Shown here piece after piece: positions 1-16,842 of a DNA stretch of 57,459 nt. Under the pieces are notes generated by a model. That model had not been told where the DNA came from. It saw only the letters and a program-made list of their open reading frames with translations, and made no database searches. The translations under genes and the position numbers were made by a program. Origin of the DNA: a virus (Duplodnaviria > Caudoviricetes); IMG/VR virus record IMGVR_UViG_3300020508_000007, positions 1-57,459 of that record. The stretch is one strand, 5' to 3'. The first letter of the stretch is position 1. Every line of letters starts with the position of its first letter.

Positions 1-99
1 AGAGCAAGGTTCTTCAGGAGAGCAAGGTTCTTCAGGAGAGCAAGGTTCTTCAGGAGAGCAAGGTTCTTCAGGAGAGCAAGGTTCTTCAGGAGAGCAAGG
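1..99 (+). repeat. Perfect 18-bp tandem repeat AGAGCAAGGTTCTTCAGG, 5.5 copies visible
   Basis: Units start at 1, 19, 37, 55, 73, partial at 91; they encode EQGSSG. Confidence 0.95.
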
Positions 100-1195: not shown

Positions 1196-1677
1196 AACTT
1201 TCTTGCAGAATCTTCGGCATCAAAAGTTTTTTTGGAATGAGATGCCAAGGCTTCAAGATTAGCAATGTCAACAAAAGTAGCGTCACCTGTAGTATCATCA
1301 ACTACGGGTGACGGAGCTTCGTCTAATACTGGAAGAAGTTCTTGTGGTTTGCTTATTGGTTTTTTCACTAAATCGCCTTGAATTTTTTGACCCGTTTTTT
1401 CCTCATACTCTTTAATCATTTCTGTATGTTCGGGATTATTTAGATCTAATTCTACTTCTTCATGTATTGAAATTACATGTTGCAAACTGTAAAAACTTAC
1501 CAAATCATTGTTGTAGGGATGAGTCCCCCAAATTCCGTCTGCTGTTATGGATGTTATCCTAACAACAAAATGCTCTCTTGATATTCGTTCGTCAAAAGAA
1601 CGATTCATAGATGTGGAGATTATACTGCACACTTTGTGAACAAAGTGTTGAAGACCTTGAATAGTTTTTGCGTTCAT
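1192..1677 (-). CDS. Hypothetical protein
   Basis: 161-aa ORF convergent with the upstream gene; no recognised motif. Confidence 0.7.
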   Translation of the reverse strand: MNAKTIQGLQHFVHKVCSIISTSMNRSFDERISREHFVVRITSITADGIWGTHPYNNDLVSFYSLQHVISIHEEVELDLNNPEHTEMIKEYEEKTGQKIQGDLVKKPISKPQELLPVLDEAPSPVVDDTTGDATFVDIANLEALASHSKKTFDAEDSARKF

Positions 1678-1712
1678 GAAATAATTAAGTGATAAATGAA
1701 TAGATATTTATT

Positions 1713-2318
1713 ATGCCAGCAACAAGTAAAAGCCAACAAAGATTATTCGGAATTGTACACGGTTGTCAGAAAAGTGACAAGAAGAAATCTATTTGTAAAA
1801 GCCCTAAGATTAAAGACCTTACTAAGAGTGTTTCAGAAAAAGATGCTGAAGATTTTGCATCAACCAAACATGAAGATTTGCCTGAAAAGGTCGAAGAAGG
1901 GCAAGTCTTAAAATTTAAAAAGTGGATGAACTGTCAAATTGATGAAAACAGAAATCGTACTGGCTTAAAATTTGGGTATCCTGATGGTTATTACAGATCT
2001 CAATATCCCGGCTTGTATAGCACCCCTATATCAGCCACAGCCGCTTTAGATTTAGAAAATGAAAGAATGATGCCAAGAAAAAATCGTGAAAACAAAAGTG
2101 GAATTCCCGACGTTGTCAAAAAGCCCGTAGGAATGATCAGCTTTCCAGAAAATACCAGTTTTAGTAATTGGTTAAGTAAAAAAGGTCTAAATGAGAATCA
2201 AGAGGAAAATATGAATAACAAAAAATGTAATTGCAAATGCGATGGCTGCAAAAAAGGTGATTGCAAGAATTGTTCTTGTGAGAATTGCTCTTGTAAAAAT
2301 TGCACATGCAATAAGTAA
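1713..2318 (+). CDS. DUF3008-like N-terminus with metallothionein-like Cys-rich tail
   Basis: MPATSKSQQRLFG...DFASTKHEDLPEK resembles DUF3008; C-terminus CNCKCDGCKKGDCKNCSCENCSCKNCTC. Confidence 0.6.
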   Translation: MPATSKSQQRLFGIVHGCQKSDKKKSICKSPKIKDLTKSVSEKDAEDFASTKHEDLPEKVEEGQVLKFKKWMNCQIDENRNRTGLKFGYPDGYYRSQYPGLYSTPISATAALDLENERMMPRKNRENKSGIPDVVKKPVGMISFPENTSFSNWLSKKGLNENQEENMNNKKCNCKCDGCKKGDCKNCSCENCSCKNCTCNK

Positions 2319-2319
2319 T

Positions 2320-3384
2320 TTACAAACGATTTAACATCAAAAGATTTGGTGTATTTTCTGTGAATGGCTTTTCAAATTTTTCGATGTAAGCCTTGATGGT
2401 TGAGGCATTTCTTTCAACAAGAAACTTATTCCAATCCTTAAAAGCTGTTGGGGGTCGCACATAATAAATTTGTGTGAGCCCCTTTTCCAGCAGAGCTTTT
2501 CCTATATCGACCATTGCCTTAAAGCCTGCTTCATCTGCGTCAAATGCAAGCACAGGATTATAGTTGCGGATTAGCTCTATCTGATTGTCGGACATGAATT
2601 TTCCTCCACATGCACAACCTATGAATCCAGCTATTTCCAAAGATTTAGCATCAAATTCACCTTCTTGAATGTAAATTTTAGAGCCTTTAGCAGGCCACTT
2701 AGTCATAAACAAGACATCTTTTTGATCGACAATTGTGGTTGGGCATTTCATATATCTCAAGACATCTTTTTTATCACTCATCAATCGTGAATTGTAATAT
2801 ACCAATTCATTTTTGTCATTGTAATATGGAATAACAATTCGATTTTTGAACTCTCCAGCAACACAAACATACAAACCATCAATAGACATTTTGCGATCTT
2901 TAAGATATGCACTTGCTCTGTGTGCCATAAAATGATTGCCCAGTTGAGAAATCAAATAGGTTGATGGTGGCAAATCAAGTTTTGGTTTTATTTGTTCATC
3001 AACTTGAGGTATTGTTGGATGTGTTTCTTTGTGACCAAAAAATTCGTGAACTTTTTGTTCTAAATCTCGTAGTGAACATCCGCCTGTAATTCTAGCTTCA
3101 GCCTCATCCCATTCCATGTTTTCTAGTTGACTGACTAATTTTACCAATGATCCCATTTCATCGGTCAACCAACACCTATACGATCCAAGTTCTGGATGCT
3201 CCGATTTTCCACCAGAAGGATTCATCCATAAGTGAAACTTAGTATCGGTTTTTCCAAGCTTTTTCTCAGACCAAATTGAATGAGTGCATATCTCCGTGCC
3301 GTGAGAGGTGTTACGAATTTTTATGTTACTATCGCCAAAATACTCTTTGGCCCAGTCCATAAACAAATCAAAATCGACAGCCAT
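2320..3384 (-). CDS. DNA primase (TOPRIM, gp61/DnaG-like)
   Basis: FKNRIVIPYY, EGEFDAKSL, FDADEAG and KDWN motifs. Confidence 0.85.
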   Translation of the reverse strand: MAVDFDLFMDWAKEYFGDSNIKIRNTSHGTEICTHSIWSEKKLGKTDTKFHLWMNPSGGKSEHPELGSYRCWLTDEMGSLVKLVSQLENMEWDEAEARITGGCSLRDLEQKVHEFFGHKETHPTIPQVDEQIKPKLDLPPSTYLISQLGNHFMAHRASAYLKDRKMSIDGLYVCVAGEFKNRIVIPYYNDKNELVYYNSRLMSDKKDVLRYMKCPTTIVDQKDVLFMTKWPAKGSKIYIQEGEFDAKSLEIAGFIGCACGGKFMSDNQIELIRNYNPVLAFDADEAGFKAMVDIGKALLEKGLTQIYYVRPPTAFKDWNKFLVERNASTIKAYIEKFEKPFTENTPNLLMLNRL

Positions 3385-3497
3385 AAATTACCTTATTTTT
3401 CTTGTTTAGTATTGTTTTATAATCCATTTTTTCCGATAATACAAATCGTGTAAACACACAGAATTAATGTGTGTCCAAAATTAAGGAAAAATGAATC

Positions 3498-4337
3498 ATG
3501 AATATCAATCACATCTCTGTGAGTCGCAAAAAATGTTTTGATCTTTGCCAGCAACAATACAAATATCGCTACCATCTAAAGGTGCCTGCTCCCGGCCCTG
3601 AGCCATTTTACTTCGTATATGGTACTATTGTCCACAAAATTGCGGAACTTTATGTCCAAGAAAATGCAATAAGACCTATAGGCGACATAGCCGCCGATCT
3701 ACTTCGTGGGAAAATTCCTCTTGAGGATGACAAACCATGCCCGGCCTTGCCTGATGATTACAAAACTAAACTGATCAAGCATCTACGTGCAATACAAAAC
3801 CTTACTCAAAGAGTAGGGTGCGATGGTATGGTTGAACACGAATTCAGGTATGATCTTGATCCCCCGAATGGAAAGTGCGTAACTGGTTTTATAGATCGAC
3901 TAATTATAAGAGGTGATGGAGAAAATAAAAAGGCTTTCATCATCGATTACAAAACTACAAAAAAAGGCAAATTTCGTGTTAACAATCAAACTGTCTTAGA
4001 AGATTTGCAACTTCGATGTTACGCCAGAGTTGTTCAACGAGAGTTTGGAATTCCTTCTTGTAATATCAAAGCTGCTTTGTTTTATCTTGATGGTGAAAAC
4101 ATAGTTGCCGCCCAATACAATGATGAATCGCTAAATAGAGTCGAAGAAGAGCTAAAAAATGGATTCATACAAATTGAAAACTCAGATCCTGATAAAGTTT
4201 GGGGAAATGTTAGCTGGCACTGCAAAAACTGTGATTACGCTTCTATGTGTCATTTTTACAAACCACAAGGAAAGGCCGAATCCAAATGGAGCGGAGATCT
4301 TGTTGAATTAGGTCACGATGACAATTGGACCGCTTAA
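3498..4337 (+). CDS. PD-(D/E)xK exonuclease, RecB/Cas4-like
   Basis: N-terminal C...GTIVH, GFIDRL...IIDYKT, QLRCYA and C-terminal CxxCxxxxxC. Confidence 0.85.
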   Translation: MNINHISVSRKKCFDLCQQQYKYRYHLKVPAPGPEPFYFVYGTIVHKIAELYVQENAIRPIGDIAADLLRGKIPLEDDKPCPALPDDYKTKLIKHLRAIQNLTQRVGCDGMVEHEFRYDLDPPNGKCVTGFIDRLIIRGDGENKKAFIIDYKTTKKGKFRVNNQTVLEDLQLRCYARVVQREFGIPSCNIKAALFYLDGENIVAAQYNDESLNRVEEELKNGFIQIENSDPDKVWGNVSWHCKNCDYASMCHFYKPQGKAESKWSGDLVELGHDDNWTA

Positions 4338-5239
4338 CGATTTGGCAGAGGTATATAATCAGGTGGATAAGTGCCTTGAGGGTTGTTTCGATCTATGATG
4401 GGAAGTTTTCTAGCATAACTTGTCCCAGCATCATTAAGCCATCCATATCCATTTTTTTCATTGAGTTCTCTCAATACATTTAATGGAGTAAAAAGACCAT
4501 TTCCATTTCCTTCTAATTCAGTCGTGCCCCAACAAATGCCAACATACAGATCTTCAGAAAGTAGTCCGCCCCCAGAACGACCCGGTCTAGGACTATTTTC
4601 TGTAGTGACGACATCAACGCCATGTTGTCCTAAAACTCTTACATCGTAATGAGCTATTTCACGACCACCATCGCACCCTATAGAATGAAGCCTCATATCA
4701 GTTTTGTACTCAAATCCCGGAGGTGAGATTGGGAAATACATGGGTATCCAATCTGGTTTGAATCTTAATAAACTACAATCTTGACCTCTGGTATTTATGT
4801 AATAAAGAACTTCAGCAGGGTACTCTTTGGGGGGATTTAATTTTTCATCGTTGTGATACCAAGTTATCACAGTGCAGTTAATTTTTCTTCGCAACCCTTC
4901 TTCGGCAGTCATATTACCAGTCCATAAATGCCCACAAGACTGAATATAGGCATAGCCATCTTTATAGTCATAAAATACGATAGTTCCAGATCCAGCTTTT
5001 CCTTTAACAGAAATTTTTACCCCTGCTGAAATCCATTTACGAACACTTATGTCTCTTTGTTCATAAGGTGCACCTCCATGTGCAAGATGGGCAAACGGAT
5101 CATTTTGAATGATCGGCATGGGCTCAACAGCACTCATGTCATAATTGAACTGTGGCCTATGATTAAAATCAGAATACATTAATGCTGCGGTAAAAATACC
5201 TAACACGATTGTTAGGGTCAAAAGAAATTTTTTAATCAT
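4334..5239 (-). CDS. Trypsin-like serine protease with N-terminal membrane anchor or signal
   Basis: SCGH, DCSLL and GRSGGG triad motifs; hydrophobic N-terminus. Confidence 0.8.
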   Translation of the reverse strand: MIKKFLLTLTIVLGIFTAALMYSDFNHRPQFNYDMSAVEPMPIIQNDPFAHLAHGGAPYEQRDISVRKWISAGVKISVKGKAGSGTIVFYDYKDGYAYIQSCGHLWTGNMTAEEGLRRKINCTVITWYHNDEKLNPPKEYPAEVLYYINTRGQDCSLLRFKPDWIPMYFPISPPGFEYKTDMRLHSIGCDGGREIAHYDVRVLGQHGVDVVTTENSPRPGRSGGGLLSEDLYVGICWGTTELEGNGNGLFTPLNVLRELNEKNGYGWLNDAGTSYARKLPIIDRNNPQGTYPPDYIPLPNR

Positions 5240-5307
5240 TATCTTCTCTTGGTGACAAAGTTAAAGTAAAATGCGAAAGTTGCATCTAATGTATATATGG
5301 AGGAATT

Positions 5308-5796
5308 ATGCTAAGATTAACAGTACATCATAACATCCATTTAACAAAGGAACAAAGATATGCTTTACACAACGGAGAAGATGTTGCAGTAGTTGGTGTT
5401 TCTTTGCCTATTTGGACTCACAAAAACGTTACAACAGAACCGGGAAGAGAGGTTTTTTGTCAGTACATTCTTAAAAATCCAAAACAAGAACTTCCAATAA
5501 AAATATTAACGAATGGTTATGAAATAACGATTCCCTATAGGGAAGGCACCAAACTCGAAATTTCAAATGAAGAATACAGAAAGCTTGTTTTAGAAAATCC
5601 TGAAGAATTAGAAAGATTGTATGAAAAAACAATCAGAGAAGTGTCTTCTAAAAACTTACTTGATATAAAAGATGGTGGCTCTGAATTTCTGAATTACAAA
5701 GAATTAAATCATGCTATGGTAAAACAAAAAGAAATTCATATCATGCACCATGTGACCATAGGCACTTATGAAAAGCTTGAAAAAAGTTTTATTTAA
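5308..5796 (+). CDS. Hypothetical protein
   Basis: 162-aa ORF with GGAGG ribosome-binding site. Confidence 0.7.
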   Translation: MLRLTVHHNIHLTKEQRYALHNGEDVAVVGVSLPIWTHKNVTTEPGREVFCQYILKNPKQELPIKILTNGYEITIPYREGTKLEISNEEYRKLVLENPEELERLYEKTIREVSSKNLLDIKDGGSEFLNYKELNHAMVKQKEIHIMHHVTIGTYEKLEKSFI

Positions 5797-6324
5797 TTAA
5801 ACAGGTGGACAGTCTTTAAGTTGCATCCCAATTCTCATAGTAACTCTATCGCCACTATTAAGTACTAATGCAGAAGGCAGAACGGCAGTTGAAATTAATT
5901 TTTCATTTCCATCAACTTCTGCTGTAAGAAAAAGGTTTCTTACAGGCGACCAAGTCCCAAGAGTTGCTACGAAAGCAACAATAGGACTGGTTGCAGTGTA
6001 GTGATTGTTATTAAAGTTTATTGCAAAATCGCCTGAAGAAGCAATTTCGGCTCTGACATATCCAAATCCATTAGGTTCACCAATTAGATCATCCATCGTA
6101 TCATCTACCACAACAGATTGTCTGTTGTCTAGGCCAAGATAATAAAAGTCAGGAATGATAGAACTTACTTTGCCGCCAACAAAAGCAGCTTGAAGAATAA
6201 ATTCTTCGCCTTGATTATGAAGTAAATTATTGATATTGTGGTCTTCCCACAACAAATTATTTGAAGAGTCCCATAGTTGGATCTCTTGAACTTTCATGAT
6301 GCCGTGCCAATTATTGTGTTTCAT
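5797..6324 (-). CDS. Probable virion structural (tail-associated) protein
   Basis: Beta-rich YLGL...EPxGxGYxR pattern. Start moved to the ATG at 6324, which removes the overlap with the 6340 ORF. Confidence 0.55.
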   Translation of the reverse strand: MKHNNWHGIMKVQEIQLWDSSNNLLWEDHNINNLLHNQGEEFILQAAFVGGKVSSIIPDFYYLGLDNRQSVVVDDTMDDLIGEPNGFGYVRAEIASSGDFAINFNNNHYTATSPIVAFVATLGTWSPVRNLFLTAEVDGNEKLISTAVLPSALVLNSGDRVTMRIGMQLKDCPPV

Positions 6325-6329
6325 AACAT

Positions 6330-6335
6330 TATATA
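6330..6335. promoter_or_regulatory. Palindromic TATATA, candidate bidirectional late promoter
   Basis: 4 nt before ATG 6340 (+) and 5 nt before ATG 6324 (-); neither gene has a Shine-Dalgarno sequence. Confidence 0.45.
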
Positions 6336-6339
6336 GAGT

Positions 6340-6627
6340 ATGTTGAGCTTCAAAAAATGGATACAATCAGAGAATCTTGCTGGTCCGGGTGGAGGCCCAG
6401 AATTTAACCCAGACAGTCAAGAATTACTGGCTAAAAACCAGCATGCACACGGTGTTGGTGCATTTCCTAGTTATGGCAATAGCCCTATAAACAAAAATAG
6501 GACTGCCACCTCAGATTATTTAGATCCTAGGTTCAAAAGAAAATATATGGCAAAACAAAATATAGTCTCTGCTTCTGTCGATAAGCAAGTAAAAAAATCG
6601 CTATCGCAGAAGCCATCTCATGATTAA
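6340..6627 (+). CDS. Small protein with capsid-targeting-like N-terminus
   Basis: Begins MLSFKKWIQSE. Confidence 0.65.
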   Translation: MLSFKKWIQSENLAGPGGGPEFNPDSQELLAKNQHAHGVGAFPSYGNSPINKNRTATSDYLDPRFKRKYMAKQNIVSASVDKQVKKSLSQKPSHD

Positions 6628-6667
6628 TGACATTTTTACTTTAAATATTTCATTAATGTAATTTTTA

Positions 6668-6711
6668 ATAAAGAACGGGACAATTACAAGGCTAATTGTC
6701 CCGTTCTTTAT
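6668..6711. terminator. Hairpin between convergent genes, likely bidirectional terminator
   Basis: 19-bp perfect inverted repeat ATAAAGAACGGGACAATTA / TAATTGTCCCGTTCTTTAT. Confidence 0.75.
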
Positions 6712-6734
6712 CGAATATTTAGTACAAGATTTAT

Positions 6735-7097
6735 TTAAAAATCTTCGTCATCATTGTCATAGTCGTCATCTTCTTCGTCGTCATCGTCGTCGTCATCTTC
6801 CCAATCATCGTCGTCATCGACATGTTGCCAGCCATTCCAATCATCATCTTCATCATCGTCTTCGTCATCATCATCATCGTCGTCATCGTCGTCATCAAAA
6901 TCTTCGTCGTCGTCGAAGTAGTCATCATCGTCGTCATCTTCATAGTCATCATCAAAATCATCTTCATCATCATCTTCATCTTCGTCAGCAAATGTTGTGG
7001 TTGCGACAGATCTAGTTGATTTCATAAACGCATTTGATTCTAGCATCCAGTCCATTACATTTGGATCTGTTTCTGATTGAGAAAAATTCTTAGTCAT
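6735..7097 (-). CDS. Extremely acidic (poly-Asp/Glu) protein
   Basis: About 80 C-terminal residues are almost all D/E punctuated by F/Y/W; GGAG site before ATG 7097. Confidence 0.75.
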   Translation of the reverse strand: MTKNFSQSETDPNVMDWMLESNAFMKSTRSVATTTFADEDEDDDEDDFDDDYEDDDDDDYFDDDEDFDDDDDDDDDDDEDDDEDDDWNGWQHVDDDDDWEDDDDDDDEEDDDYDNDDEDF

Positions 7098-7186
7098 CGT
7101 TCGCTCCTCCAAGGAAAAAGACTTACGGGTATATTAGGAAACAATTGCAGAATTTGCAAATTATTTCTGAACATTCAGGCAAAATT

Positions 7187-7399
7187 ATGAAAGATAAGAT
7201 CAAAAATGAACAAGTTAAACATCAGGTTCGGGGTCAGGTTGTGGATCAGGTTTATGATCAGGTTCTTAATCAGGTTAGATATCAGCTTTGGTGGAAGGTT
7301 AATGATCAGGTTAGGTTAAAGGTTAGTGATCAGGTTTATTGGCAGGTTAGGAATCAAGTTTTGAGACAGGTTGACAATCAAGTTTGTTTTCAATTATAA
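7187..7399 (+). CDS. QVxx-repeat microprotein, unit 1
   Basis: MKDKI start, 12-nt CAGGTTnnnnnn period; TAA replaces the GAA of the shared LEREI tail. Confidence 0.6.
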   Translation: MKDKIKNEQVKHQVRGQVVDQVYDQVLNQVRYQLWWKVNDQVRLKVSDQVYWQVRNQVLRQVDNQVCFQL

Positions 7400-7409
7400 A
7401 GAGAGATTA

Positions 7410-7622
7410 ATGATGAGAGATAAAATTATTCAAAATTTGACAGAGATAAAAAAACAGGTTTGGGATAAGGTTTGGGATAAGGTTGGCGAGCAGGTTGATG
7501 TTCGGGTTTTTAATCAAGTTGATGTTCAGGTTTTGGATCAGATTTATTGGAGGGTTAGGCGTCAGGTTAGGAATAATCGGGTTGATAATCAATTAGAAAG
7601 AGAAATTAATGATGAAAGATAA
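7410..7622 (+). CDS. QVxx-repeat microprotein, unit 2
   Basis: MMRDKI...QVWDKVWDKV...QLEREINDER*; stop overlaps the next unit's start. Confidence 0.6.
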   Translation: MMRDKIIQNLTEIKKQVWDKVWDKVGEQVDVRVFNQVDVQVLDQIYWRVRRQVRNNRVDNQLEREINDER

Positions 7623-7809
7623 GATTAATAAAGTTAGAAAAGAAGCTTTGTATCAAGTTGAAAATCAGGTTGGGTTTTAGGTTCGGGATCAGGTTAGGTG
7701 GCAAGTTTACAATCAGGTTAGGTGGCAGTTTAATGATCAAGTTTGGCAGGTTAATGTAAATGTTAGGGATCAGGTGGCATTTCAAATTTTTTGTGGTTGT
7801 AAATCCTAA
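7612..7809 (+). pseudogene. QVxx-repeat unit 3 with in-frame TAG
   Basis: TAG at 7678-7680 in GTT GGG TTT TAG GTT; unit 5 has GTT GGG TTT CAG GTT. Repeats continue in frame after the stop. Confidence 0.6.
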
Positions 7810-8193
7810 CTAGCTGCTAACTATTTTCCTATAAATCTCTTCTATATTTAGAAGGGTTTGAGGTATTTTATCAGGAATATGCTTTTGGTATAATGGAAGT
7901 AAATATTTTATTGTATTATATGCTAATTCTAGAATTTGTTGAGCATTTCTTGATAATTGTTCTGGGTCATTAACATTTAAACCTTCCATTGTCTTTGCAT
8001 TTTCCAAAGCCCACTTTACACTGACTAGAATAGCTTGCCTTCCTTGATCTGTGGTGGCTAATTTTTCTCTATGAATTTGATTAGGACCTAAGAGATATTG
8101 AAGGTTTTTAAAAAGGTTTTTCAATAGTTGAAAAGGCACTTCGGTTGTTTCTAGGTATTTTCTTTGGGTGATATATTGATTAAAAGTTTTCAT
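7810..8193 (-). CDS. Hypothetical protein with capsid-targeting-like N-terminus, inside the QV array
   Basis: Begins MKTFNQYITQRKYLE. Confidence 0.7.
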   Translation of the reverse strand: MKTFNQYITQRKYLETTEVPFQLLKNLFKNLQYLLGPNQIHREKLATTDQGRQAILVSVKWALENAKTMEGLNVNDPEQLSRNAQQILELAYNTIKYLLPLYQKHIPDKIPQTLLNIEEIYRKIVSS

Positions 8194-8304
8194 TGATTAG
8201 TTCCTTTTTGAGACAGATAATTAAACAAATTACGCAAATATGTATTGTGAATTGGTTCAAAAATTGTGGTAAGATAGCTAGGCGATTAGAAAGAGAAATT
8301 AATT

Positions 8305-8475
8305 ATGAAAGATAAGATTCAGAAAGTAATGGATCAGGTTTTTGATCATGTTTGGGATCATATTAGTAATCAGGTTTGGGTTCAGGTTTATAATCAATTT
8401 GATGGTCAGATTTATTGGAGGGTTAGGCGTCAGGTTTGTTTCCGATTAAGTCGGGAGATTAACAATGAAAGATAA
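8305..8475 (+). CDS. QVxx-repeat microprotein, unit 4 (56 aa, not in ORF track)
   Basis: MKDKIQKVMDQVFDHVWDH...QIYWRVRRQVCFRLSREINNER*. Confidence 0.6.
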   Translation: MKDKIQKVMDQVFDHVWDHISNQVWVQVYNQFDGQIYWRVRRQVCFRLSREINNER

Positions 8476-8809
8476 GGTTGTGTGTCAGGTTAAGTGGCAA
8501 GTTAGGGATCAGATTTGGAATCAGACTGTGGATCAGGTTAGGCGTCAAGTTGGGTTTCAGGTTAGCAATAATCTGGTTTTGTGGAAGGTTAGGAATCAAT
8601 TAGAAAGAGAGATTGATAGTCAACTAAAGAAATTTGTCCATATCTTATCGATTAATTCTGTAAGTTATCGATGTGCAACCATAAGTGTGCGGCTTGCTTT
8701 TTGGAGGACATGGCTTTTTTTCTACGACTTGCACCATTTTTCCTTCAGGGTTTCTTTCCATTTTTACAGTCGTTACCAATTTACCATAGATTTGCTCCCA
8801 TTCATATAA
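8465..8809 (+). CDS. QVxx-repeat unit 5; family similarity ends near 8620, rest is run-on
   Basis: MKDKVVCQVKWQVRDQIWNQ...QLEREID; tail overlaps an antisense ORF. Confidence 0.5.
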   Translation: MKDKVVCQVKWQVRDQIWNQTVDQVRRQVGFQVSNNLVLWKVRNQLEREIDSQLKKFVHILSINSVSYRCATISVRLAFWRTWLFFYDLHHFSFRVSFHFYSRYQFTIDLLPFI

Positions 8810-8950
8810 TGGAGAGCCTTCTAACGCCTGCGAAGGTGTTTCGCAAGTGTTTTCCACATTGCCACATCCGCAACCCTGATTATTTTCCGGCTTGCGTCTG
8901 CGAGTATACTCTATTGAAGATTCATTTGGGGTACAGCTATAACAAGACAT
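8645..8950 (-). CDS. Small Cys-containing hypothetical protein
   Basis: AGGAG site just after the stop of the upstream peptidase. Confidence 0.65.
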   Translation of the reverse strand: MSCYSCTPNESSIEYTRRRKPENNQGCGCGNVENTCETPSQALEGSPLYEWEQIYGKLVTTVKMERNPEGKMVQVVEKKPCPPKSKPHTYGCTSITYRINR

Positions 8951-8959
8951 AAGTTCTCC

Positions 8960-10420
8960 TTAGGAAATATGAGTTCTAACTAACTTTCCATCTATGATTG
9001 CAAAAGGAGTTGCTGAGTCATCAGAAACTTTATTTTTAGCATTCAAAAAATCAATCATGTCACAAGCATTTTGAATTGATTCATCTTGTGGTACTGAAAT
9101 TAAATCATAAGGCATGCGATTTAAATCATACAAATACGCTTCTTCATTAGGAATTTCTACTGTCACATTATAAAGAGGATTATTTGTCTGTGCTCTCAAT
9201 ATTTGGTCTTGTAATTTAATCTCCATATTAGTTGCTGTTTTTAGGATTAAATCATCAGGACATGCTGGAGCCACGCTAAGCATTCGCAAAACTGGAGCAG
9301 CAAGATTTCTTGCCACGAAAATTTGATGAATTCTATCATGATATTTCCTGTTACTCAAAACCACATCAGCCCAAAGAATGGTCGTTGCCATGCTAGAAAA
9401 AAACTTAGCATTAATTGGAACGTTTTGAACGGCTTTTAAAACATATGTGCTCAAAGTATCTCGTGAAACTTTTACAGCATCAATAGGAGCTATGCCTTGA
9501 TTTAAGTTGTCCTCATACATCATTACAAAAATGTCATAAAATGCACCTAAAAATATTCTGCTAAAATTATGTGGATCTGATGATAATTGATCTGGTGGTG
9601 CATCTTGGGGCAAAGTGCTAGGACTTACATAAACAAAAGAATTTATTGCTGAACGCAAACAGTCATATGGCTTTCCATTTGTTGATCCAAAAAGTTGAAA
9701 AATAGCGATTCCAAATTGCTCGGCAATCCGACTAATTACATTTGGTTTTCGTAAATCGTTATTTGTTTCACTTAAAGCTCTGTTTATCATTTCATCATAA
9801 TTTAATGCGTGAATCATGGCAGTAAAGTCTGCAAAAGCCTCATGAAAAGCATCTACTTCAATCAGAGCAGCATTCCAAGTCTCTGGTCTATATGTGTCTA
9901 ATATTGCATGTCCAAGCTCATGGGCTACAATTTCAGACGAATCACATGTGTGAATTGTTCCTCCAATTTTTGGATGAGAATAACTGAAAAATCTTAAAGA
10001 TGAGCGATCATAATATGCATTCAAATCATTTCCCGCACGAGGATAAACATTTAATATGGAGGCTTTTGCCCAACGTGCAAATGCTCGCTCTGATTTAGAA
10101 TTGAAAAAATTTAAAGTATTAGCAACAACCACAAAACAATTTGCTGCTTGTCCTTCTATTGTGTTTCTTAAAAATCCACCGCCTCTGTAATTTTTCACCG
10201 CAAAAGCAATACGACCTGTGTATACGGGAGGAAGAATCTCCTTGATCAAATCTGGAGTGCTAAGATCATTCATAATAAATTGAATTTTCTTATTGTTTTG
10301 AGTCGGAATTTTAATTCTAGGAACAAGAATAGTAGGTCTTTTTATTCTCCAACTAATTACTTTAGCTCCTTTTACTTTTTCAAAACCAAAAAAGTTCATA
10401 ACTTTATCTAATAAATACAT
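8960..10420 (-). CDS. Zinc metallopeptidase, thermolysin/fungalysin-like (M4/M36)
   Basis: NAYY, AHELGH, FHEAFAD and DPH motifs. Confidence 0.8.
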   Translation of the reverse strand: MYLLDKVMNFFGFEKVKGAKVISWRIKRPTILVPRIKIPTQNNKKIQFIMNDLSTPDLIKEILPPVYTGRIAFAVKNYRGGGFLRNTIEGQAANCFVVVANTLNFFNSKSERAFARWAKASILNVYPRAGNDLNAYYDRSSLRFFSYSHPKIGGTIHTCDSSEIVAHELGHAILDTYRPETWNAALIEVDAFHEAFADFTAMIHALNYDEMINRALSETNNDLRKPNVISRIAEQFGIAIFQLFGSTNGKPYDCLRSAINSFVYVSPSTLPQDAPPDQLSSDPHNFSRIFLGAFYDIFVMMYEDNLNQGIAPIDAVKVSRDTLSTYVLKAVQNVPINAKFFSSMATTILWADVVLSNRKYHDRIHQIFVARNLAAPVLRMLSVAPACPDDLILKTATNMEIKLQDQILRAQTNNPLYNVTVEIPNEEAYLYDLNRMPYDLISVPQDESIQNACDMIDFLNAKNKVSDDSATPFAIIDGKLVRTHIS

Positions 10421-10463
10421 GAAACACCTCCCTTCTATATATCCTTGTTAGCTAGGCATCAAA

Positions 10464-11036
10464 ATGAGTAAACAAAAAGAAAATGTAATTAGAGAACAAA
10501 GGACCATTGAAGCAACCAAAAAGAATTTTATGGGACCATCAGGTAAATTTGGCATGATCCTACAAGCTTTTGGGACACCAGTGATTCGTCAAGGGACAGG
10601 TCTTTTTGACTCATCATACATGGATGACCCTTATGGAGACGAAGTTTACTCTGAATATGGATCAACTGCCAGCGGACAAAGAGGACCACTTCTTTTTCGT
10701 GACGAAATAGCCACAACAGCCGATGAAAATTTTTACAATGAAGGTTTAATATTTGACGGTTTAAGTCGTGGTATACATCTTGAAATAGTTTATTGGCACT
10801 ATGATAGTAGACTGCAAGTTTCTTTCAAAGGCTATCCAGTTTATATTGAAATAGCTGGCGAATTAGAGGCTTATGCACCTACAGATGAGTGGGAAAATAT
10901 TATTGAACGATTAGCCAAGGCAGGCAAAGATAGACTAAAAAGTCTTAAAAAACAGCAAGAGGAAGAAATTGGAAAGAAGTTACAAGAAAAAAAAGCCTCA
11001 TTCTTACAAAGAATTCGCACAAAGTGGGGAGTGTGA
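10464..11036 (+). CDS. Hypothetical protein
   Basis: 190-aa ORF. Confidence 0.7.
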   Translation: MSKQKENVIREQRTIEATKKNFMGPSGKFGMILQAFGTPVIRQGTGLFDSSYMDDPYGDEVYSEYGSTASGQRGPLLFRDEIATTADENFYNEGLIFDGLSRGIHLEIVYWHYDSRLQVSFKGYPVYIEIAGELEAYAPTDEWENIIERLAKAGKDRLKSLKKQQEEEIGKKLQEKKASFLQRIRTKWGV

Positions 11037-11151
11037 GCATGCTATTAACCAATCAGAGACCACAGTTGTAAATTCAATCAGTAAATCCGCATTCAAAAAC
11101 ATAAATAAGGATAGTTTAAAAGACTGTTCAGGGAATTATAGGAGGGTATCA

Positions 11152-11733
11152 ATGTCTGCAAAAAATCATGATAATTGCGAAAATCAAGACTGCAAAGTCG
11201 AAAGCTTAGTATTAGATGATGGTCGTCGTGCAGAAAGACACACAACTCTTGACGCAACCGGCAAAGAAGTTGTAGAAATTTTTGCTGAAGAAAAGCGTCC
11301 ACTAAAGCTAGAAAAAAGAATTGTTCGTGAGATGAAGAACATTATCGCCAAAGAAGTTCACCAATTCGTCAAGGATGGGGAAGTTTCTTACGAAGAAGTT
11401 CTTGCTCTTGAACCAGAAGTGCCACTACAAGTCAGATCTCGAATCGGAGTTGCTGAACATGCCAAAGTAGTAGATGGCGATTATGTACGAAAAGATGAAC
11501 TAGGAAAGCTTATTGAAGATGGTGTTGTCGCAGGTGTTTCTGCTTTAATGGAACAAATGCAGCCAGTTCAAGCACAAGCTCAACGACCAGAAGAAAAAGT
11601 CCTAAGAGCACAACAAATTGTCGAAATGAATGTAGAAGAAAAGAAAAAGAGCAACTCTTGGGAAAATTTAGCATTAGGTGCAATTATCCTAATTCAAGTT
11701 GTATTCCTTTTAGGGTACTATTTTTTAACGTAA
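11152..11733 (+). CDS. Hypothetical protein with C-terminal transmembrane anchor
   Basis: AGGAGG before ATG 11152; ends LALGAIILIQVVFLLGYYFLT. Confidence 0.7.
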   Translation: MSAKNHDNCENQDCKVESLVLDDGRRAERHTTLDATGKEVVEIFAEEKRPLKLEKRIVREMKNIIAKEVHQFVKDGEVSYEEVLALEPEVPLQVRSRIGVAEHAKVVDGDYVRKDELGKLIEDGVVAGVSALMEQMQPVQAQAQRPEEKVLRAQQIVEMNVEEKKKSNSWENLALGAIILIQVVFLLGYYFLT

Positions 11734-11774
11734 AAGTGGGTGTGTTATTTGGACACAATACAAACTATATAACT

Positions 11775-11905
11775 TCCCCTCCTACACAACTATCGTAGCA
11801 CCTGAAACCGAAAGGAAAAGGTGCTACTGTCGTGTAAGGAAAGATCGTTATCAAAAAAGACAACCTCACCGTGATCTGAACGATCTTTTCGATCAGATCA
11901 AGCCT
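11775..11905 (+). ncRNA. Candidate structured non-coding RNA
   Basis: GTAGCACCT/AGGTGCTAC stem capped by CC-GAAA-GG, second hairpin 11872-11900, TATATA just upstream. Strand and boundaries are inferred. Confidence 0.3.
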
Positions 11906-11925
11906 CTAAAATTTTCAAGTAGCGA

Positions 11926-12291
11926 TCAATTTGACTTTAAAACAGGACGCACACGAACTTCCCAAGATTCAAGATTGCCTTTAATTTCTACACTACCAAA
12001 TCTTTCGGTAAGCAAATCTACGGCTAAAGATTGACACTTTTTCTTAGCTTCATCTTTGTCAATTGCTACAAATTCTTCAAATCTGATGTAGTTTGGATGT
12101 TGCAATCCTCTTTGTTTATACATCAAATCTCCTTGCCAATTAGTAGTAGCTATTTTATGTTCGACGACTCGTTCTATTGATCTAGTCATTTTTTCTAAAA
12201 TAGCCACCAGTAACTCTGAGTTTGATTTTTCTGCAAGCTCTTTGATTAGGGATATTTCTTCTTCAGTAAAAATACAACTATTTAAAATCAT
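11926..12291 (-). CDS. Hypothetical protein
   Basis: 121-aa ORF with GAGG site. Confidence 0.65.
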   Translation of the reverse strand: MILNSCIFTEEEISLIKELAEKSNSELLVAILEKMTRSIERVVEHKIATTNWQGDLMYKQRGLQHPNYIRFEEFVAIDKDEAKKKCQSLAVDLLTERFGSVEIKGNLESWEVRVRPVLKSN

Positions 12292-12316
12292 CTAAACCTC
12301 TCTATTAAGAAATCAA

Positions 12317-12345
12317 AAATAAAAGCCCAGTTTATGCTGGGCTTT
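12317..12345 (-). terminator. Rho-independent terminator
   Basis: AAAGCCCAG/CTGGGCTTT stem followed by a T-rich tract on the minus strand. Confidence 0.65.
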
Positions 12346-12373
12346 ACATAGATCTAAAAAAGTTTGAAAGCTT

Positions 12374-12751
12374 TTAAGGTTTCGCGAGAGCAGAAATTGG
12401 CAATCTTTCCAAGGTACTTTTATTAGGATCATTTAAGCAATTTTTTGAAGACATGGTAAGTCTAGAATAGTCGCCATACTTGGCAATCTTAGACTTATTA
12501 TATGTCTTAATGCTTCGCAACATTTGCTTCAAGGATCGAACTGTTTTTCCTTCACGGATCTCATATCCAATAATCTTGGTTTTGGTATTTTTAATTACCA
12601 ATACTGTACGTCGCACAGGATGTGTGTGGTTTCCTTGATAGTAAAACTTAGCAACAGGCAACTTTCTAACAATTGGATGCTTGGTAGAGTTCACTTCGTG
12701 TGCTATCAATTTAGAGAAAGAAGTTGCTTCAAAAATTTCTGTAACCTTCAT
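12374..12751 (-). CDS. WYL-like domain protein
   Basis: FYY...RRTV...IIGYE...IKTYNKSKI spacing resembles WYL domains. Confidence 0.4.
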   Translation of the reverse strand: MKVTEIFEATSFSKLIAHEVNSTKHPIVRKLPVAKFYYQGNHTHPVRRTVLVIKNTKTKIIGYEIREGKTVRSLKQMLRSIKTYNKSKIAKYGDYSRLTMSSKNCLNDPNKSTLERLPISALAKP

Positions 12752-12874
12752 GTCAAAAATCCCTTTTTGTTTTCGTGGCTAATTCCACAGTACTTGATTT
12801 TATCTCAAATTCTTTAAGTGTCAAGCTACTTCAAAACACAAAATTTTGAAATTTAGAGTGCAAAGCTATGATGG

Positions 12875-13312
12875 TTATTTAAGATAGAGTTTCATTTCCA
12901 TGGCAGTTTCCATCGAATCTTTAAGCTGATCTTCATAAAAAACTTTCAAATACGCATAAAGAGTATGCAATGTAGGGTCGATTGCATTCTCTATCGCAGC
13001 AATCCTGTGACTGTAATTTGAAGCAACTTCTTCCTCCATTTTGATAGCATAAGCAACCAAAGCCCAAGGATCTGTTTCATCCATAATGTATGGATTGATG
13101 TTTTGCGAAGGCACGCCCCCAAGTTGGACAATCAATTTTGAAAACTCGGTTACGTGTTTGTGCTCGTCTTGAGACTCTTCTAAAAATAGCTCACTGTATT
13201 CCTGCCTATGCAAGCCTTTGACCATAGCACCCGCTTGCAAATAAAACATCATGTGTTTTCGTTCGTTTGCTAAATCTTCTTGCAAATTAGCAATAATTTT
13301 ATCGATATTCAT
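12875..13312 (-). CDS. Ferritin/bacterioferritin-like protein
   Basis: LANE...Y...EESQDEHKH...QLGGVP...MEEEV four-helix di-iron pattern. Confidence 0.8.
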   Translation of the reverse strand: MNIDKIIANLQEDLANERKHMMFYLQAGAMVKGLHRQEYSELFLEESQDEHKHVTEFSKLIVQLGGVPSQNINPYIMDETDPWALVAYAIKMEEEVASNYSHRIAAIENAIDPTLHTLYAYLKVFYEDQLKDSMETAMEMKLYLK

Positions 13313-13329
13313 AATCAGTTTGCTTTCTT

Positions 13330-14475
13330 TTATTGATGAGTGTGGAAAGGTAATTCTGGATGGCCGTGATCGTGAGTATAATCCATTTCTTTAAAACTTG
13401 CATGATTGAACTTCGGATTTGTTTCTGCATCCGTTACTCTCCATGCTAGCTCAAAAGCATACTGAGCCACCTGCATCAAACCATCATAGTTGATTTTATC
13501 TGCGGTGTCATTAGGGGTGTGATAGTGAGGATGACCCCCTGTGTGTAAAAACGCCACAGGAACTCTTTTGTTGTAAAAAGAAGCATGATCTGACCCACCC
13601 GACCCACGACTTGTAATACTTTTAGCAAAATTATACTTTTTATTCAAGTCAGAAAGTATCATTCCTATGTCAGCAGAGCTTTCTCCCTCATGAAAACTTG
13701 CAAAATACTCTCCCTTACCAAGATATCCGACCATATCCATGTTTAGCATAAAAATATGACTTTGCATTCTTGGCTTATCTTTCGGGTACAAAGGATTGTC
13801 GCAATAAAAACGACTTCCAATCAATCCCATCTCTTCTGCTGAATAAGCCTGAAATACAACTGTTCTTTTGCATTTATCCCTAATCATCGAAAAGGCTTGA
13901 GCGATTTCAAGCAAAGCAACGGTTCCAGAAGCATTGTCATCGGCTCCGGGATGAACTCTCCTTAAAGCTGGAGTCCTACTCATCGAAGGACCATATCCAA
14001 TATGGTCCATATGAGCACCAATTACCACGACTTCATTTTTCAAAACTGGATCTGTTCCTTCAATTACAGCATAAATGTTCTGCGTGTAATCATCTCCTTG
14101 TTCGTTTTTAAGACCGGAATTTACTCTTCTGATTGGAAATTTGTGGTAGACAGATTCCAAACCGAAACTTTCAAACTTGTGTTTTATAAATTCAGCAGCA
14201 ACAACATTTCCCTTCTTGCCACTCATGCGTCCCTCTAGTTCTTCACTAGCAAGATAAATTAAGTCTTTTTGAAGTTCTTCTTTGGAAATACTTTTTAAAG
14301 CATCTTCCAGAGTAATTTCTTTAGGCGGATCAACCTTGAAAGACTCATTCTTTTGAATCTTTGGACCTTCTGCCATATCGACTGTTTTGTTCTGTCTGTT
14401 CTTGATCTTCTGCAAAGCCACAAACATGGTAAGTGCTGTCATCAAAACTAAAATCATCAAAAGAATCTTTTTCAT
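13330..14475 (-). CDS. M28 family peptidase with signal or anchor
   Basis: GAHMDH, GADDNASG, AEEMGLIGS, NMDMVG, SDH and YHTPNDT motifs. Confidence 0.9.
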   Translation of the reverse strand: MKKILLMILVLMTALTMFVALQKIKNRQNKTVDMAEGPKIQKNESFKVDPPKEITLEDALKSISKEELQKDLIYLASEELEGRMSGKKGNVVAAEFIKHKFESFGLESVYHKFPIRRVNSGLKNEQGDDYTQNIYAVIEGTDPVLKNEVVVIGAHMDHIGYGPSMSRTPALRRVHPGADDNASGTVALLEIAQAFSMIRDKCKRTVVFQAYSAEEMGLIGSRFYCDNPLYPKDKPRMQSHIFMLNMDMVGYLGKGEYFASFHEGESSADIGMILSDLNKKYNFAKSITSRGSGGSDHASFYNKRVPVAFLHTGGHPHYHTPNDTADKINYDGLMQVAQYAFELAWRVTDAETNPKFNHASFKEMDYTHDHGHPELPFHTHQ

Positions 14476-14604
14476 ACTACCCTCCTGTATAACTTAATTC
14501 AGTAATTTTACATCAAGTTTGCTCGTTTTAATGTCTTGTATGTGTAAAAAATTATTAGCCAAATATACATATTAGCATCAAAACACAACAAAAAGGTGTA
14601 AAAT

Positions 14605-16793: not shown

Positions 16794-16842
16794 AAATCAA
16801 AATTACAAAGATATATAATTAAAAATCTCAATGAGGCTTAAA

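What the first reader, a model, noticed from the sequence alone, without database searches (positions are those of the whole stretch)
7187..8625. Tandem array of coupled QVxx-repeat microgenes with a conserved junction and variable 12-nt units
Seen: five ~55-70 codon units built from CAGGTTnnnnnn (QVxx), variable positions rich in W/R/D/N/Y. Units are joined by TTAGAAAGAGAAATTAA(n)ATGAAAGATAAG, which reads LEREINxER* in one frame and MKDK in the next (near 7394, 7593, 8286, 8446, partial 8600). A 31-nt block is identical in units 2 and 4 (7538-7568, 8406-8436). Units 1 and 3 carry nonsense changes. The + strand is strongly G/T-skewed with GGTTAG-like words. Inference: a recombination-shuffled, fast-turnover peptide repertoire (for example anti-defence or binding peptides), or an element acting at DNA/RNA level.
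Basis: partly seen in the sequence, partly recalled or inferred. Interest (0 to 1): 0.8.

Follow-up and report, generated by a model that had tools for sequence, protein, structure and literature searches.

The report
Decaying row of QV-repeat mini-genes
A large lake-water phage carries five tiny back-to-back genes, each a free-standing copy of a four-amino-acid repeat that other phages build into one unstudied protein; here the row looks old, partly broken and without its usual partner gene.

Summary
Between 7187 and 8625 the + strand holds five small genes (56-70 codons) made of Q-V-x-x units. Each has a fixed MKDK start and a fixed LEREINDER end, and the stop of one gene overlaps the start of the next. 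They are protein-coding members of a widespread phage family. The same tetrapeptide tract normally sits inside DUF6745 proteins. In some phages it is instead split off as rows of mini-genes beside a repeat-less DUF6745 gene. This scan has reported such rows before on other DNA; I re-derived the pattern independently here.

This copy is atypical in four ways:
- No DUF6745 gene lies in the 57-kb record, which is about 11% of the genome.
- The row is an insertion between genes that are adjacent in two relatives.
- An orphan gene on the opposite strand splits it.
- Three of the five units are damaged, and synonymous sites have drifted.

Its pieces were identical in contigs of two other studies, so fast turnover is not seen here. 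A DNA- or RNA-level role is not supported. Function is unknown. The best guess is an exchangeable helical surface module that works with a DUF6745 core. I found no paper that describes such rows.

The parts
7113..7186 (.). Divergent intergenic region between the acidic-protein gene (-) and U1 (+). It is the left edge of the inserted segment.
   Evidence: ORF map. No promoter-like site was scored here. In two relatives the flanking genes are adjacent.
7187..7399 (+). U1: 70-aa mini-gene with an MKDK cap and 16 tetrads. TAA at 7397-7399 replaces the GAA of the LEREIN cap, so the last 8 cap residues are lost.
   Evidence: AlphaFold2 gives one continuous helix, residues 2-69, mean pLDDT 85.8.
7410..7622 (+). 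U2: intact 70-aa mini-gene (MMRDK ... NQLEREINDER). Its stop lies inside the start region of U3.
   Evidence: AlphaFold2 gives an all-helical model with a low-confidence break at residues 34-36, mean pLDDT 67.7.
7609..7809 (+). U3: damaged unit. TAG at 7678-7680 sits at a Q position. One tetrad is a codon short. The normal C-cap is missing, and the frame ends against the stop of the opposite-strand ORF.
   Evidence: The TAG is present in a contig of run X5 covering 7468-7794 with no other letters.
7810..8193 (-). 127-aa orphan ORF on the opposite strand that splits the array.
   Evidence: No Pfam or PHROG family. No relative in viral contigs. No usable Atlas hit. The exact protein is on record from 9 contigs, in a cluster of one.
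8286..8315 (+). Orphan junction remnant (RLEREINYER, then stop). It is the C-cap of a lost unit and overlaps the start of U4.
   Evidence: 19-nt exact match to the U2/U3 junction, 7592 = 8285. ORF 8193-8315.
8305..8475 (+). U4: intact 56-aa mini-gene with a diverged cap (RLSREINNER). Its stop overlaps the start of U5.
8465..8625 (+). U5: the last unit. Its cap is cut after LEREID and the normal stop is lost. The ORF runs on to 8809, antisense to the neighbouring gene. This is the right edge of the inserted segment.
7538..7568 (+). 31-nt block (encodes QIYWRVRRQV) identical to 8406-8436 in U4.
   Evidence: Logan contigs break exactly here.
8406..8436 (+). Second copy of the 31-nt block.
6735..7112 (-). 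Left flank, not part of the array: extremely acidic 125-aa protein. An acidic protein occupies the same place in two relatives.
   Evidence: BLASTP gave no alignment between the acidic proteins, so the match is by position and composition only.
8645..8950 (-). Right flank, not part of the array: 101-aa Cys-rich ORF. Its first 30 residues match the C-terminal tail of the metalloprotease-like protein of LR756511.1.
   Evidence: E 2e-5 for a single comparison. The exact protein is on record from 7 contigs.

Best explanation
**What it is (shown).** The region is a row of five paralogous mini-genes on the + strand. Each encodes an MKDK cap, then 10-16 tetrapeptides, then a charged cap LEREINDER. 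Each tetrapeptide has a polar Q, a hydrophobic V and two variable residues. Where the chain is intact, the stop of one gene lies 11-14 nt inside the next gene. They belong to the QV tetrapeptide-tract family of phages. That tract is usually the middle part of DUF6745 proteins, and in some phages it is split off as rows of mini-genes.

**History of this copy (shown or directly inferred).**
- The row and an orphan opposite-strand gene (about 7113-8644) are an insertion between a metalloprotease-like gene block and an acidic-protein gene. These are adjacent in two relatives.
- Its codon use is foreign to the phage.
- Unlike typical arrays, its synonymous sites have drifted.
- Three of the five units are damaged.
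- I read it as an older, probably acquired array that is no longer homogenised and is partly decaying. U2 and U4 are still intact.

**How it works (inferred).**
- The purine-rich cap codons (GAAAGAGAAA) double as a ribosome-binding site for the next gene, so the units are made by coupled translation.
- Each product is predicted to be one long alpha-helix about 100 A long.
- On an ideal helix the Q-V pair winds round the axis once per nine tetrads, and the x-x residues make a variable surface. In this array, as in the family, these positions favour W, R and D/N.
- Across the family, the internal tract and the detached mini-genes are mutually exclusive. I therefore think the helices act together with a DUF6745 core, as exchangeable versions of its variable middle part.
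- By analogy with mycobacteriophage Tweety gp54, they would set what that core binds. Here the core would have to be encoded in the unseen 89% of the genome.
For: **Coding frame**
- Each unit has an ATG, caps and a stop in one frame.
- The three length departures in the tracts (U2 +1 codon, U3 -1, U5 +1) keep the frame.
- Site 2 is V/I/L/F in 62 of 64 tetrads. Site 1 is Q in 45 of 64, and Q/K/R/H/N in 62 of 64.

**Family**
- A scan of viral contigs found 162 relatives among 299 pattern matches; 78 loci were kept.
- In all 78 loci one Q codon makes up at least 87% and one V codon at least 80%. All eight Q/V codon pairs occur across loci.
- A profile of the four units found 501 representatives at E <= 0.001 and 95 at E <= 1e-10.
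- I scanned 105 of the best 150, and 91 of the 105 carry DUF6745.

**Cis or trans pattern, using my own model built from 37 post-tract tails**
- 15 of 29 loci with two or more mini-genes hold a DUF6745-like gene.
- In the 13 real array loci among those 15, all 14 DUF6745-like genes are repeat-less.
- In loci without arrays, 36 of 39 carry at least 10 QVxxQV.
- Of five records with an array but no DUF6745 in the fetched locus, the two complete ones have a DUF6745 gene about 3 and 7 kb away. The three fragments have none.

**Insertion**
- L080 and LR756511.1 have the metalloprotease-like gene followed directly by an acidic protein.
- In LR756511.1 that gene includes a Cys-rich tail that matches the window's 101-aa ORF.
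- The profile finds no QV unit in the 595-kb LR756511.1.

**Foreign and drifted codons**
- Array CAG is 32 of 48 Q codons against 15% in long ORFs. GTT is 51 of 57 against 45% (p 1.5e-15 and 1.7e-12).
- Entropy at codon third positions in the window is 0.94, 1.70 and 0.98 bits. The means over 66 loci are 0.04, 0.31 and 0.25.

**Helix.** U1 folds as one helix, residues 2-69, pLDDT 85.8. U2 is helical at pLDDT 67.7.
Against: - No DUF6745 or phrog_31813 match lies anywhere in the 57-kb record. In both complete records tested the DUF6745 gene lay within about 8 kb of the array. Here 7 kb upstream and 49 kb downstream are empty of it.
- My own model gave only a gappy 27.5-bit match on the Toprim primase, which I judge spurious.
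- Three of five units are damaged: U1 cap stop, U3 TAG and lost cap, U5 lost stop. This fits a remnant as well as a working set.
- No array ORF that I tried, in any frame, is in the 15-billion-protein collection.
- There is no evidence of transcription or translation.
- The helix models are single-sequence predictions. The U2 model is of low confidence, and its break shows that the fold is not settled.
- The link to counter-defence is analogy only. Tweety gp54 has no Pfam match and has a different repeat (AAxx).
- The statistical support for selection at the V site is modest: 8 single changes at codon position 1 against 1 at position 2, p 0.04.
Confidence: 0.6

Rival explanations
1. Dead remnant. 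The array was captured from another phage and is now a non-functional, decaying set of pseudogenes. The intact look of U2 and U4 is only a matter of time.
For: - Three of five units are damaged.
- There is no partner DUF6745 in 57 kb.
- Synonymous sites have drifted, unlike in 66 other loci.
- The array is split by an unrelated ORF.
- The terminal cap is cut at the edge of the insert.
- None of the ORFs I tried is in the protein collection.
Against: - The V site is hydrophobic in 62 of 64 tetrads despite the DNA drift.
- The length departures keep the frame.
- Caps, starts and overlapping stops are intact for U2 and U4.
- The U1 stop removes only eight cap residues.
- Pieces of the array are identical in contigs of two studies not flagged as sources.
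Confidence: 0.25
2. Stand-alone helices. The mini-proteins work without any DUF6745 core. They might self-assemble into rods or bundles, or bind a host or defence protein directly as small decoys.
For: - No DUF6745 lies in the record.
- 14 of 29 loci with mini-genes show none in the fetched stretch.
- A long single helix is predicted for U1.
- Coupled translation of paralogues is typical of subunits made in fixed ratios (established knowledge).
Against: - Six of those 14 arrays sit at the edge of their locus, so a neighbour may be cut off.
- Both complete records tested do have a DUF6745 gene nearby.
- The strict either/or of internal tract and detached units argues for a shared function with DUF6745.
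Confidence: 0.12
3. An element that acts as DNA or RNA. A G/T-rich minisatellite, structured RNA or recombination signal, with the open frames as a by-product.
For: - The region has the strongest GC skew of the window.
- Three frames, and parts of the minus strand, are open.
- In related loci the hexamer is monomorphic.
Against: - The hexamer differs between lineages through all eight synonymous pairs, while the peptide stays QV.
- There is no Rfam match in the array.
- Folding z-scores are -1.6 and -1.3.
- Only the QV frame has a start, a cap and a stop per unit, here and in the array loci.
Confidence: 0.02
4. Read-through by recoding. The phage reads TAG as glutamine, so U3 is intact.
For: The TAG at 7678-7680 sits exactly where CAG (Q) is expected. 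Some large phages recode TAG (recalled, not checked here).
Against: - 3 of 29 long ORFs end in TAG, and the long ORFs are intact under table 11.
- No tRNA of any kind is in the window.
- CAG to TAG is a single transition.
- Another phage has a TAA at a Q site.
- U3 also lacks its C-cap.
Confidence: 0.03

Closest known systems
Central tetrapeptide tract of phage DUF6745 proteins (Pfam PF20530, phrog_31813); function unknown
   Same: - It has the same xQVx repeat. The profile of the window's units finds these proteins first, and 91 of 105 scanned carry DUF6745.
- Family-wide, variation sits at codon positions 1-2 of the x residues.
   Different: - The window's units are free-standing genes of 56-70 aa with their own caps.
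- They have no N-terminal or DUF6745 domain.
- They have 10-16 tetrads, against 24-68 in the 25 long proteins printed.
Rows of detached QV mini-genes beside a repeat-less DUF6745 gene. Seen in uncultured phages here (for example L005, L019, L031, L052) and in earlier reports of this scan. I found no paper on them.
   Same: - The format is the same: Met-Lys cap, tract, short charged cap, chained genes on one strand.
- BLASTP identity to U1 is 50-60%.
   Different: - No DUF6745 gene lies in the record.
- The hexamer is not homogeneous, and synonymous sites have drifted.
- Three of five units are damaged.
- The row is split by an unrelated opposite-strand ORF.
Mycobacteriophage Tweety gp54 (also Che8 gp57, PMC gp51)
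   Same: - It has a 12-bp unit whose first six bases are invariant. Variation sits at unit positions 7, 8, 10 and 11, and the third codon positions are fixed (passages of PMC2884959). The QV family shows the same pattern.
- Changes in repeat number tune escape from a prophage defence (passage of PMC9262239).
   Different: - The repeat is Ala-Ala-x-x inside a single 374-aa protein with unique ends.
- It has no Pfam match at E <= 0.1, so it is not DUF6745.
- It is an analogue, not a shown relative.
Diversity-generating retroelements (DGR)
   Same: They give localised variation at non-synonymous positions in a phage protein.
   Different: - No reverse transcriptase lies in the record.
- I saw no template/variable repeat pair.
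- Family-wide variation is not what adenine-specific mutagenesis of one template codon would give. The x2 residues are D 46%, N 16%, A 14% and G 8%, with the other NNC residues rare.

Membership tests
QV tetrapeptide-tract family (tract of DUF6745 proteins and its detached mini-gene form) | Four-residue period with a constant polar plus hydrophobic pair (Q-V) and two variable residues | tested here: met
   There are 64 tetrads. Site 2 is V/I/L/F in 62 and site 1 is Q in 45. The 12-nt pattern occurs 30 times against 0.22 expected.
QV tetrapeptide-tract family (tract of DUF6745 proteins and its detached mini-gene form) | Profile-level similarity to the tracts of other members | tested here: met
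   The profile found 501 representatives at E <= 0.001. Of the 105 scanned, 91 carry DUF6745. tblastn found 162 relatives in viral contigs.
QV tetrapeptide-tract family (tract of DUF6745 proteins and its detached mini-gene form) | Mini-gene format: own Met-Lys cap, short charged C-cap, chained genes on one strand | tested here: met
   The same format is seen in the array loci.
QV tetrapeptide-tract family (tract of DUF6745 proteins and its detached mini-gene form) | A repeat-less DUF6745 gene near the array on the same strand | tested here: not met
   No PF20530 or phrog_31813 match lies in the 57-kb record. My own model gives only a spurious primase match. The record is about 11% of the genome, so the genome as a whole could not be tested.
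QV tetrapeptide-tract family (tract of DUF6745 proteins and its detached mini-gene form) | Within-locus monomorphic Q-V hexamer, with variation confined to codon positions 1-2 of x-x | tested here: not met
   Window: CAG 32 and CAA 16. Third-position entropies are 0.94, 1.70 and 0.98 bits, against means of 0.04, 0.31 and 0.25 in 66 loci.
DUF6745 (Pfam PF20530) | The roughly 200-residue DUF6745 domain | tested here: not met
   None of the four units scanned has a Pfam family. The units are filed beside DUF6745, not as members of it.
Tweety gp54-type tunable repeat protein | Unique N- and C-terminal domains flanking the tetrapeptide tract in one protein | tested here: not met
   The units have only 3-15 residue caps. 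gp54 has about 140- and 50-residue ends.
Tweety gp54-type tunable repeat protein | Changes in repeat number alter escape from a host defence | not testable with these tools
   This needs a cultured host and phage. It is known for Tweety only from the review passage.
Diversity-generating retroelement | A reverse transcriptase and a template repeat near the variable repeat | tested here: not met
   No RVT_1 match at E <= 1 in the record. The only long exact repeat in the array region is the 31-nt block.
TAG-recoded phage (TAG read as Gln) | TAG not used as a stop, and a suppressor tRNA present | tested here: not met
   3 of 29 long ORFs end in TAG. No tRNA lies in the window.

The most novel reading that the evidence does not exclude
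The mini-genes are a library of parts that work in trans. Each helix docks onto a repeat-less DUF6745 core, encoded elsewhere in this roughly half-megabase genome, in place of the tract that other phages carry in cis. One core could then display many alternative surfaces and lengths. The phage could change what the core binds, for instance a host defence protein, by shuffling, gaining or losing 200-bp genes. The window would show the late stage of such a library, after homogenisation has stopped.
Probability: 0.25. Interest if true: 0.8.

Novelty: new variant of a known kind. Interest (0 to 1): 0.5.

Why it matters
Phage proteins with fast-changing tetrapeptide repeats are known from one studied case, Tweety gp54. 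There, repeat number tunes escape from a bacterial defence. The QV tract is much more widespread: the profile found 501 cluster representatives. It sits in a protein family (DUF6745) that no paper in the searched library mentions.

The same tract can be built into the protein or encoded as a row of separate mini-genes. This is a natural split experiment. It says that the tract is a module in its own right and probably binds the core.

This window adds three points:
- Such rows can move as an island into a conserved gene block.
- They can outlive the process that keeps their DNA uniform.
- They then decay unit by unit while still keeping the amino-acid pattern.

It also flags a class of small genes that may be missed by automatic annotation. 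None of the array ORFs I tried is in a collection of 15 billion proteins.

Tried and rejected
- **Oligomer prediction.** A homodimer job for U2 could not be queued in 17 hand-ins. No result exists.
- **Word-based homologue search with U2.** One candidate, none scored. The unit is too diverged for shared 5-residue words.
- **tblastn of U2 against isolated phages.** No match. BLAST's low-complexity filter may hide repeats, so this says little.
- **blastn of 7100-8700 against phages.** No match.
- **Junction pattern scans.** Viral contigs gave 0 matches. Metagenome contigs gave 4, none with a QV frame, so they are chance.
- **Relatives of the 127-aa ORF.** None found.
- **Shared neighbours.** No window ORF in 1-20000 other than U1 and U5 matches any ORF of 23 array loci.
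- **Solved structures by sequence.** Nothing meaningful for the unit profile or for a DUF6745 protein; best E 0.19 and 0.0054.
- **Sequencing runs.** No RNA holder is listed.
- **Low-depth joints.** Many low-depth contigs at 85-95% likeness join distant parts of the array, with sides of 21-36 nt. By the tool's own warning these may come from other arrays or organisms, so I do not count them as rearrangements.
- **X4 record 22.** It joins 7537 to 8406 through the 31-nt block. The bins on the other two arms have no cover in that run, and 31 is also where the Logan contigs break. I treat the join as an assembly artefact.
- **Terminal repeats.** No terminal inverted or direct repeats flank the 127-aa ORF insert.
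- **Promoter scan.** It found fewer sites than the shuffles did, 7 against a mean of 10. The site at 8193-8221 upstream of U4 is only a consensus match.
- **Hairpin fold for U2.** Rejected as unreliable. The break has pLDDT below 50, and U1 folds as one helix.
- **Papers.** 'DUF6745' gave 0 papers. Four QV hexapeptide strings gave one irrelevant paper. 'Tetrapeptide repeat' with phage terms gave nothing relevant.
Full report
**Setting.** The window is a whole IMG/VR virus record of 57,459 bases that CheckV rates as 11% complete. It encodes:
- a T4-type major capsid protein, prohead protease and large terminase, and a portal protein that holds an intein
- a Toprim primase and a PD-(D/E)XK nuclease
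- many accessory genes

The terminase is closest (49.8% identity) to a 595-kb uncultured phage, LR756511.1. The DNA around the finding occurs in lake and freshwater metagenomes. So this is a fragment of a very large T4-like freshwater phage. Its host is unknown.

- CAGGTTNNNNNNCAGGTT with at most one mismatch occurs 30 times, all on the + strand between 7211 and 8563. Shuffles gave a mean of 0.22.
- In the frame that reads CAG GTT as Gln-Val there are five units: U1 7187-7399, U2 7410-7622, U3 7609-7809, U4 8305-8475 and U5 8465-8625.
- Each starts with MKDK (MRDK in U2). Where intact, each ends with NQLEREINDER.
- The stop of U2 lies 11-14 nt inside U3. The stop of a lost unit lies inside U4, and the stop of U4 lies inside U5.
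- The 31-nt block 7538-7568 recurs exactly at 8406-8436.
- TAA 7397-7399 replaces the GAA of the U1 cap. TAG 7678-7680 replaces a CAG in U3. Both are present, with no other letters, in contigs of runs not flagged as possible sources (X4 7384-7537, X5 7468-7794).

A 127-aa ORF on the opposite strand (7810-8193) separates U3 from an orphan cap remnant (8286-8315) and U4.

**It is protein-coding in the QV frame.**
- Three + frames, and parts of the minus strand, are open because of the repeat's composition. Only the QV frame has a start, caps and a stop per unit.
- The three departures from the 12-nt period are each of one codon: U2 QVRNN, U3 QVW, and the extra W in U5.
- Over 64 tetrads the second site is V/I/L/F in 62. 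The first site is Q in 45, and Q/K/R/H/N in 62.
- Single-base departures from GTT fall 8 times on codon position 1, which gives I, L or F. They fall once on position 2 (p 0.04).
- The strongest argument comes from relatives. In all 78 related loci one Q codon makes up at least 87% and one V codon at least 80% of the scorable units. Across loci all eight pairs of CAA/CAG with GTT/GTC/GTA/GTG occur.
- So the peptide is conserved and the DNA word is not. This also removes the G/T skew as a conserved feature.
- There is no Rfam match in the array. RNA folding z-scores are -1.6 and -1.3. No reverse transcriptase lies in the record.

**What family it is.**
- A scan of viral contigs with the unit alignment gave 299 pattern matches, of which 162 encode relatives; 78 loci were kept.
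- The loci show two builds. One is a long protein with a tract of tens of tetrads. The other is a row of 2-19 small genes, each with a Met-Lys cap, a tract and a short charged cap.
- An exhaustive profile search found 501 cluster representatives at E <= 0.001 and 95 at E <= 1e-10.
- I scanned 105 of the best 150 against Pfam, and 91 of the 105 carry DUF6745.
- With a model that I built from 37 post-tract tails, a DUF6745-like gene is present in 15 of 29 loci that have two or more mini-genes. Two of the 29, L049 and L062, are off-frame artefacts inside long proteins. Six of the 14 without it have the array at the edge of the locus.
- In the 13 real array loci with such a gene, all 14 DUF6745-like genes are repeat-less: 0-1 QVxxQV and 209-337 aa.
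- In loci without arrays, 36 of 39 carry at least 10 QVxxQV.
- I took five records whose array had no DUF6745 in the fetched stretch. The two complete ones have a DUF6745 gene about 3 and 7 kb from the array. The three fragments have none.
- The tract is therefore either in cis or in trans, which argues that the mini-proteins work with the DUF6745 core.
- Earlier agents of this scan reported the same arrangement on other genomes. I used their notes as leads and re-derived the pattern from my own loci.

**Family-wide variation.**
- Over 66 loci with at least 20 QVxxQV units, mean within-locus entropy is 0.04 and 0.15 bits at the third positions of Q and V. It is 0.31 and 0.25 at the third positions of the two x codons.
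- At unit positions 7, 8, 10 and 11 it is 1.43, 0.65, 0.65 and 0.88 bits.
- The x residues are mainly W 26%, R 26%, G 17% and S 9%, then D 46%, N 16%, A 14% and G 8%.
- The 2007 Tweety paper describes the same rule for gp54: first six bases invariant, third positions fixed, variation at positions 7, 8, 10 and 11 (passages of PMC2884959; its supplementary tables were not read).
- A review passage says that changes in the number of gp54 repeats let Tweety escape the Phrann gp29/gp30 defence (PMC9262239; the primary paper was not read).
- Tweety gp54 itself has an AAxx tract and no Pfam match at E <= 0.1. It is an analogue, not a shown relative.

**How this copy differs.**
1. No DUF6745 or phrog_31813 match lies in the record. 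My own model hits only the Toprim primase, with a gappy 27.5-bit alignment that I judge spurious. The window reaches only 7 kb to the left of the array, and the genome is about nine-tenths unseen. Absence from the genome is therefore not shown.
2. The array is an insertion.
   - In L080 (34% identity to the 486-aa metalloprotease-like protein) that gene is followed directly by an extremely acidic protein.
   - The same holds in LR756511.1 (37% identity).
   - In LR756511.1 the gene carries a Cys-rich tail that matches the window's separate 101-aa ORF.
   - The unit profile finds nothing in the 595-kb genome.
   - In the window, 7113-8644 lies between these partners.
3. The codon use is foreign. 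CAG makes up 32 of 48 Q codons against 15% in the long ORFs. GTT makes up 51 of 57 V codons against 45%.
4. The array is not homogeneous. Third-position entropies are 0.94, 1.70 and 0.98 bits, with CAA replacing CAG in a third of the units. That is the direction of the phage's own bias.
5. Three of five units are damaged, and the last cap is cut at the edge of the insert. An in-tract stop at a Q site is rare: I found it in only one other phage among the 78 loci.
6. Pieces of the array are identical in contigs of two studies not flagged as sources: X4 at 6969-7346, 7384-7537, 7743-8164 and 8406-8866, and X5 at 7045-7284, 7468-7794 and 8598-8966. Contigs cannot show rare variants, but nothing here indicates rapid turnover.

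**Structure.** AlphaFold2 without an alignment gives U1 as one continuous helix, residues 2-69, at mean pLDDT 85.8. U2 comes out helical with a break of very low confidence, at mean pLDDT 67.7. On an ideal helix a four-residue repeat advances 40 degrees and 6 A per unit (arithmetic). The Q-V pair would then wind once round the axis in nine units, and there is no straight hydrophobic seam. This fits a rod with a variable surface better than a classical coiled coil. That is inference; no oligomer prediction could be run.

**Verdict.**
- Its reading as a peptide repertoire is right.
- Its 'fast turnover' applies to the family but is not seen in this copy.
- The DNA/RNA alternative is not supported.
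- The most likely account is an acquired, ageing and partly broken row of detached QV-tract mini-genes.
- Their working partner, if there still is one, is a DUF6745 core elsewhere in the genome.
- TAG recoding as a rescue for U3 is unlikely: 3 of 29 long ORFs end in TAG and the window holds no tRNA.

**Literature.** Searches for DUF6745 (0 papers), for four QV hexapeptide strings and for tetrapeptide repeats in phages found no description of such mini-gene rows.

Noticed in passing
window 19457-22018 (+): The T4-type portal protein (Portal_T4, E 9e-75) carries an intein splicing domain at residues 110-327 (E 1.4e-13).
   Followed up: no
window 18206-18721 (+): A 172-aa protein matches the 2'-5' RNA ligase superfamily and the anti-CBASS Acb1 family (E 1.9e-7, 31.4 bits, above the cut-off). 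It is a candidate counter-defence nuclease.
   Followed up: no
window 8960-10420 (-), 8645-8950 (-), 6735-7112 (-): This is a conserved block of a 486-aa protein with an HELGH motif (metalloprotease-like, no Pfam family), a Cys-rich piece and an extremely acidic D/E-run protein. In LR756511.1 the Cys-rich piece is fused to the first protein; in the window it is a separate ORF.
   Followed up: partly
window 28473-30233 (+): Directly after the major capsid gene lies a 587-aa protein with Mom-family and GNAT acetyltransferase matches. It may modify DNA.
   Followed up: no
window 40104-42702 (+): Adjacent PP2C-type phosphatase and protein-kinase-like genes, preceded by a VWA-like gene at 38732-39463.
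   Followed up: no
window 48983-49534 (-): A free-standing LAGLIDADG homing endonuclease (E 5e-21).
   Followed up: no
window 2323-3387 (-): My home-made model of the region after the QV tract (DUF6745-like) gives a gappy 27.5-bit match to the Toprim part of the primase. I judged it spurious and cannot explain it.
   Followed up: partly
L023 4545-5354, L027 2-409, protein P0131: A third build of the family: a QV tract followed by a small C-terminal domain of about 60 residues (motif YEHPxFDLIRxG) instead of DUF6745. L023 has no Pfam family.
   Followed up: no
window 7145-8806, all frames tried: None of the 17 array ORF sequences I looked up, in either strand or any frame, is in the 15-billion-protein collection. 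The two flanking opposite-strand ORFs are, on 9 and 7 contigs. The mini-genes may be missed by the gene callers behind that collection.
   Followed up: partly
window 7538-7568 and 8406-8436: Logan contigs of all four runs break at the 31-nt block, which acts as a branch point in the assemblies. One low-depth contig crosses from U2 into U4.
   Followed up: partly
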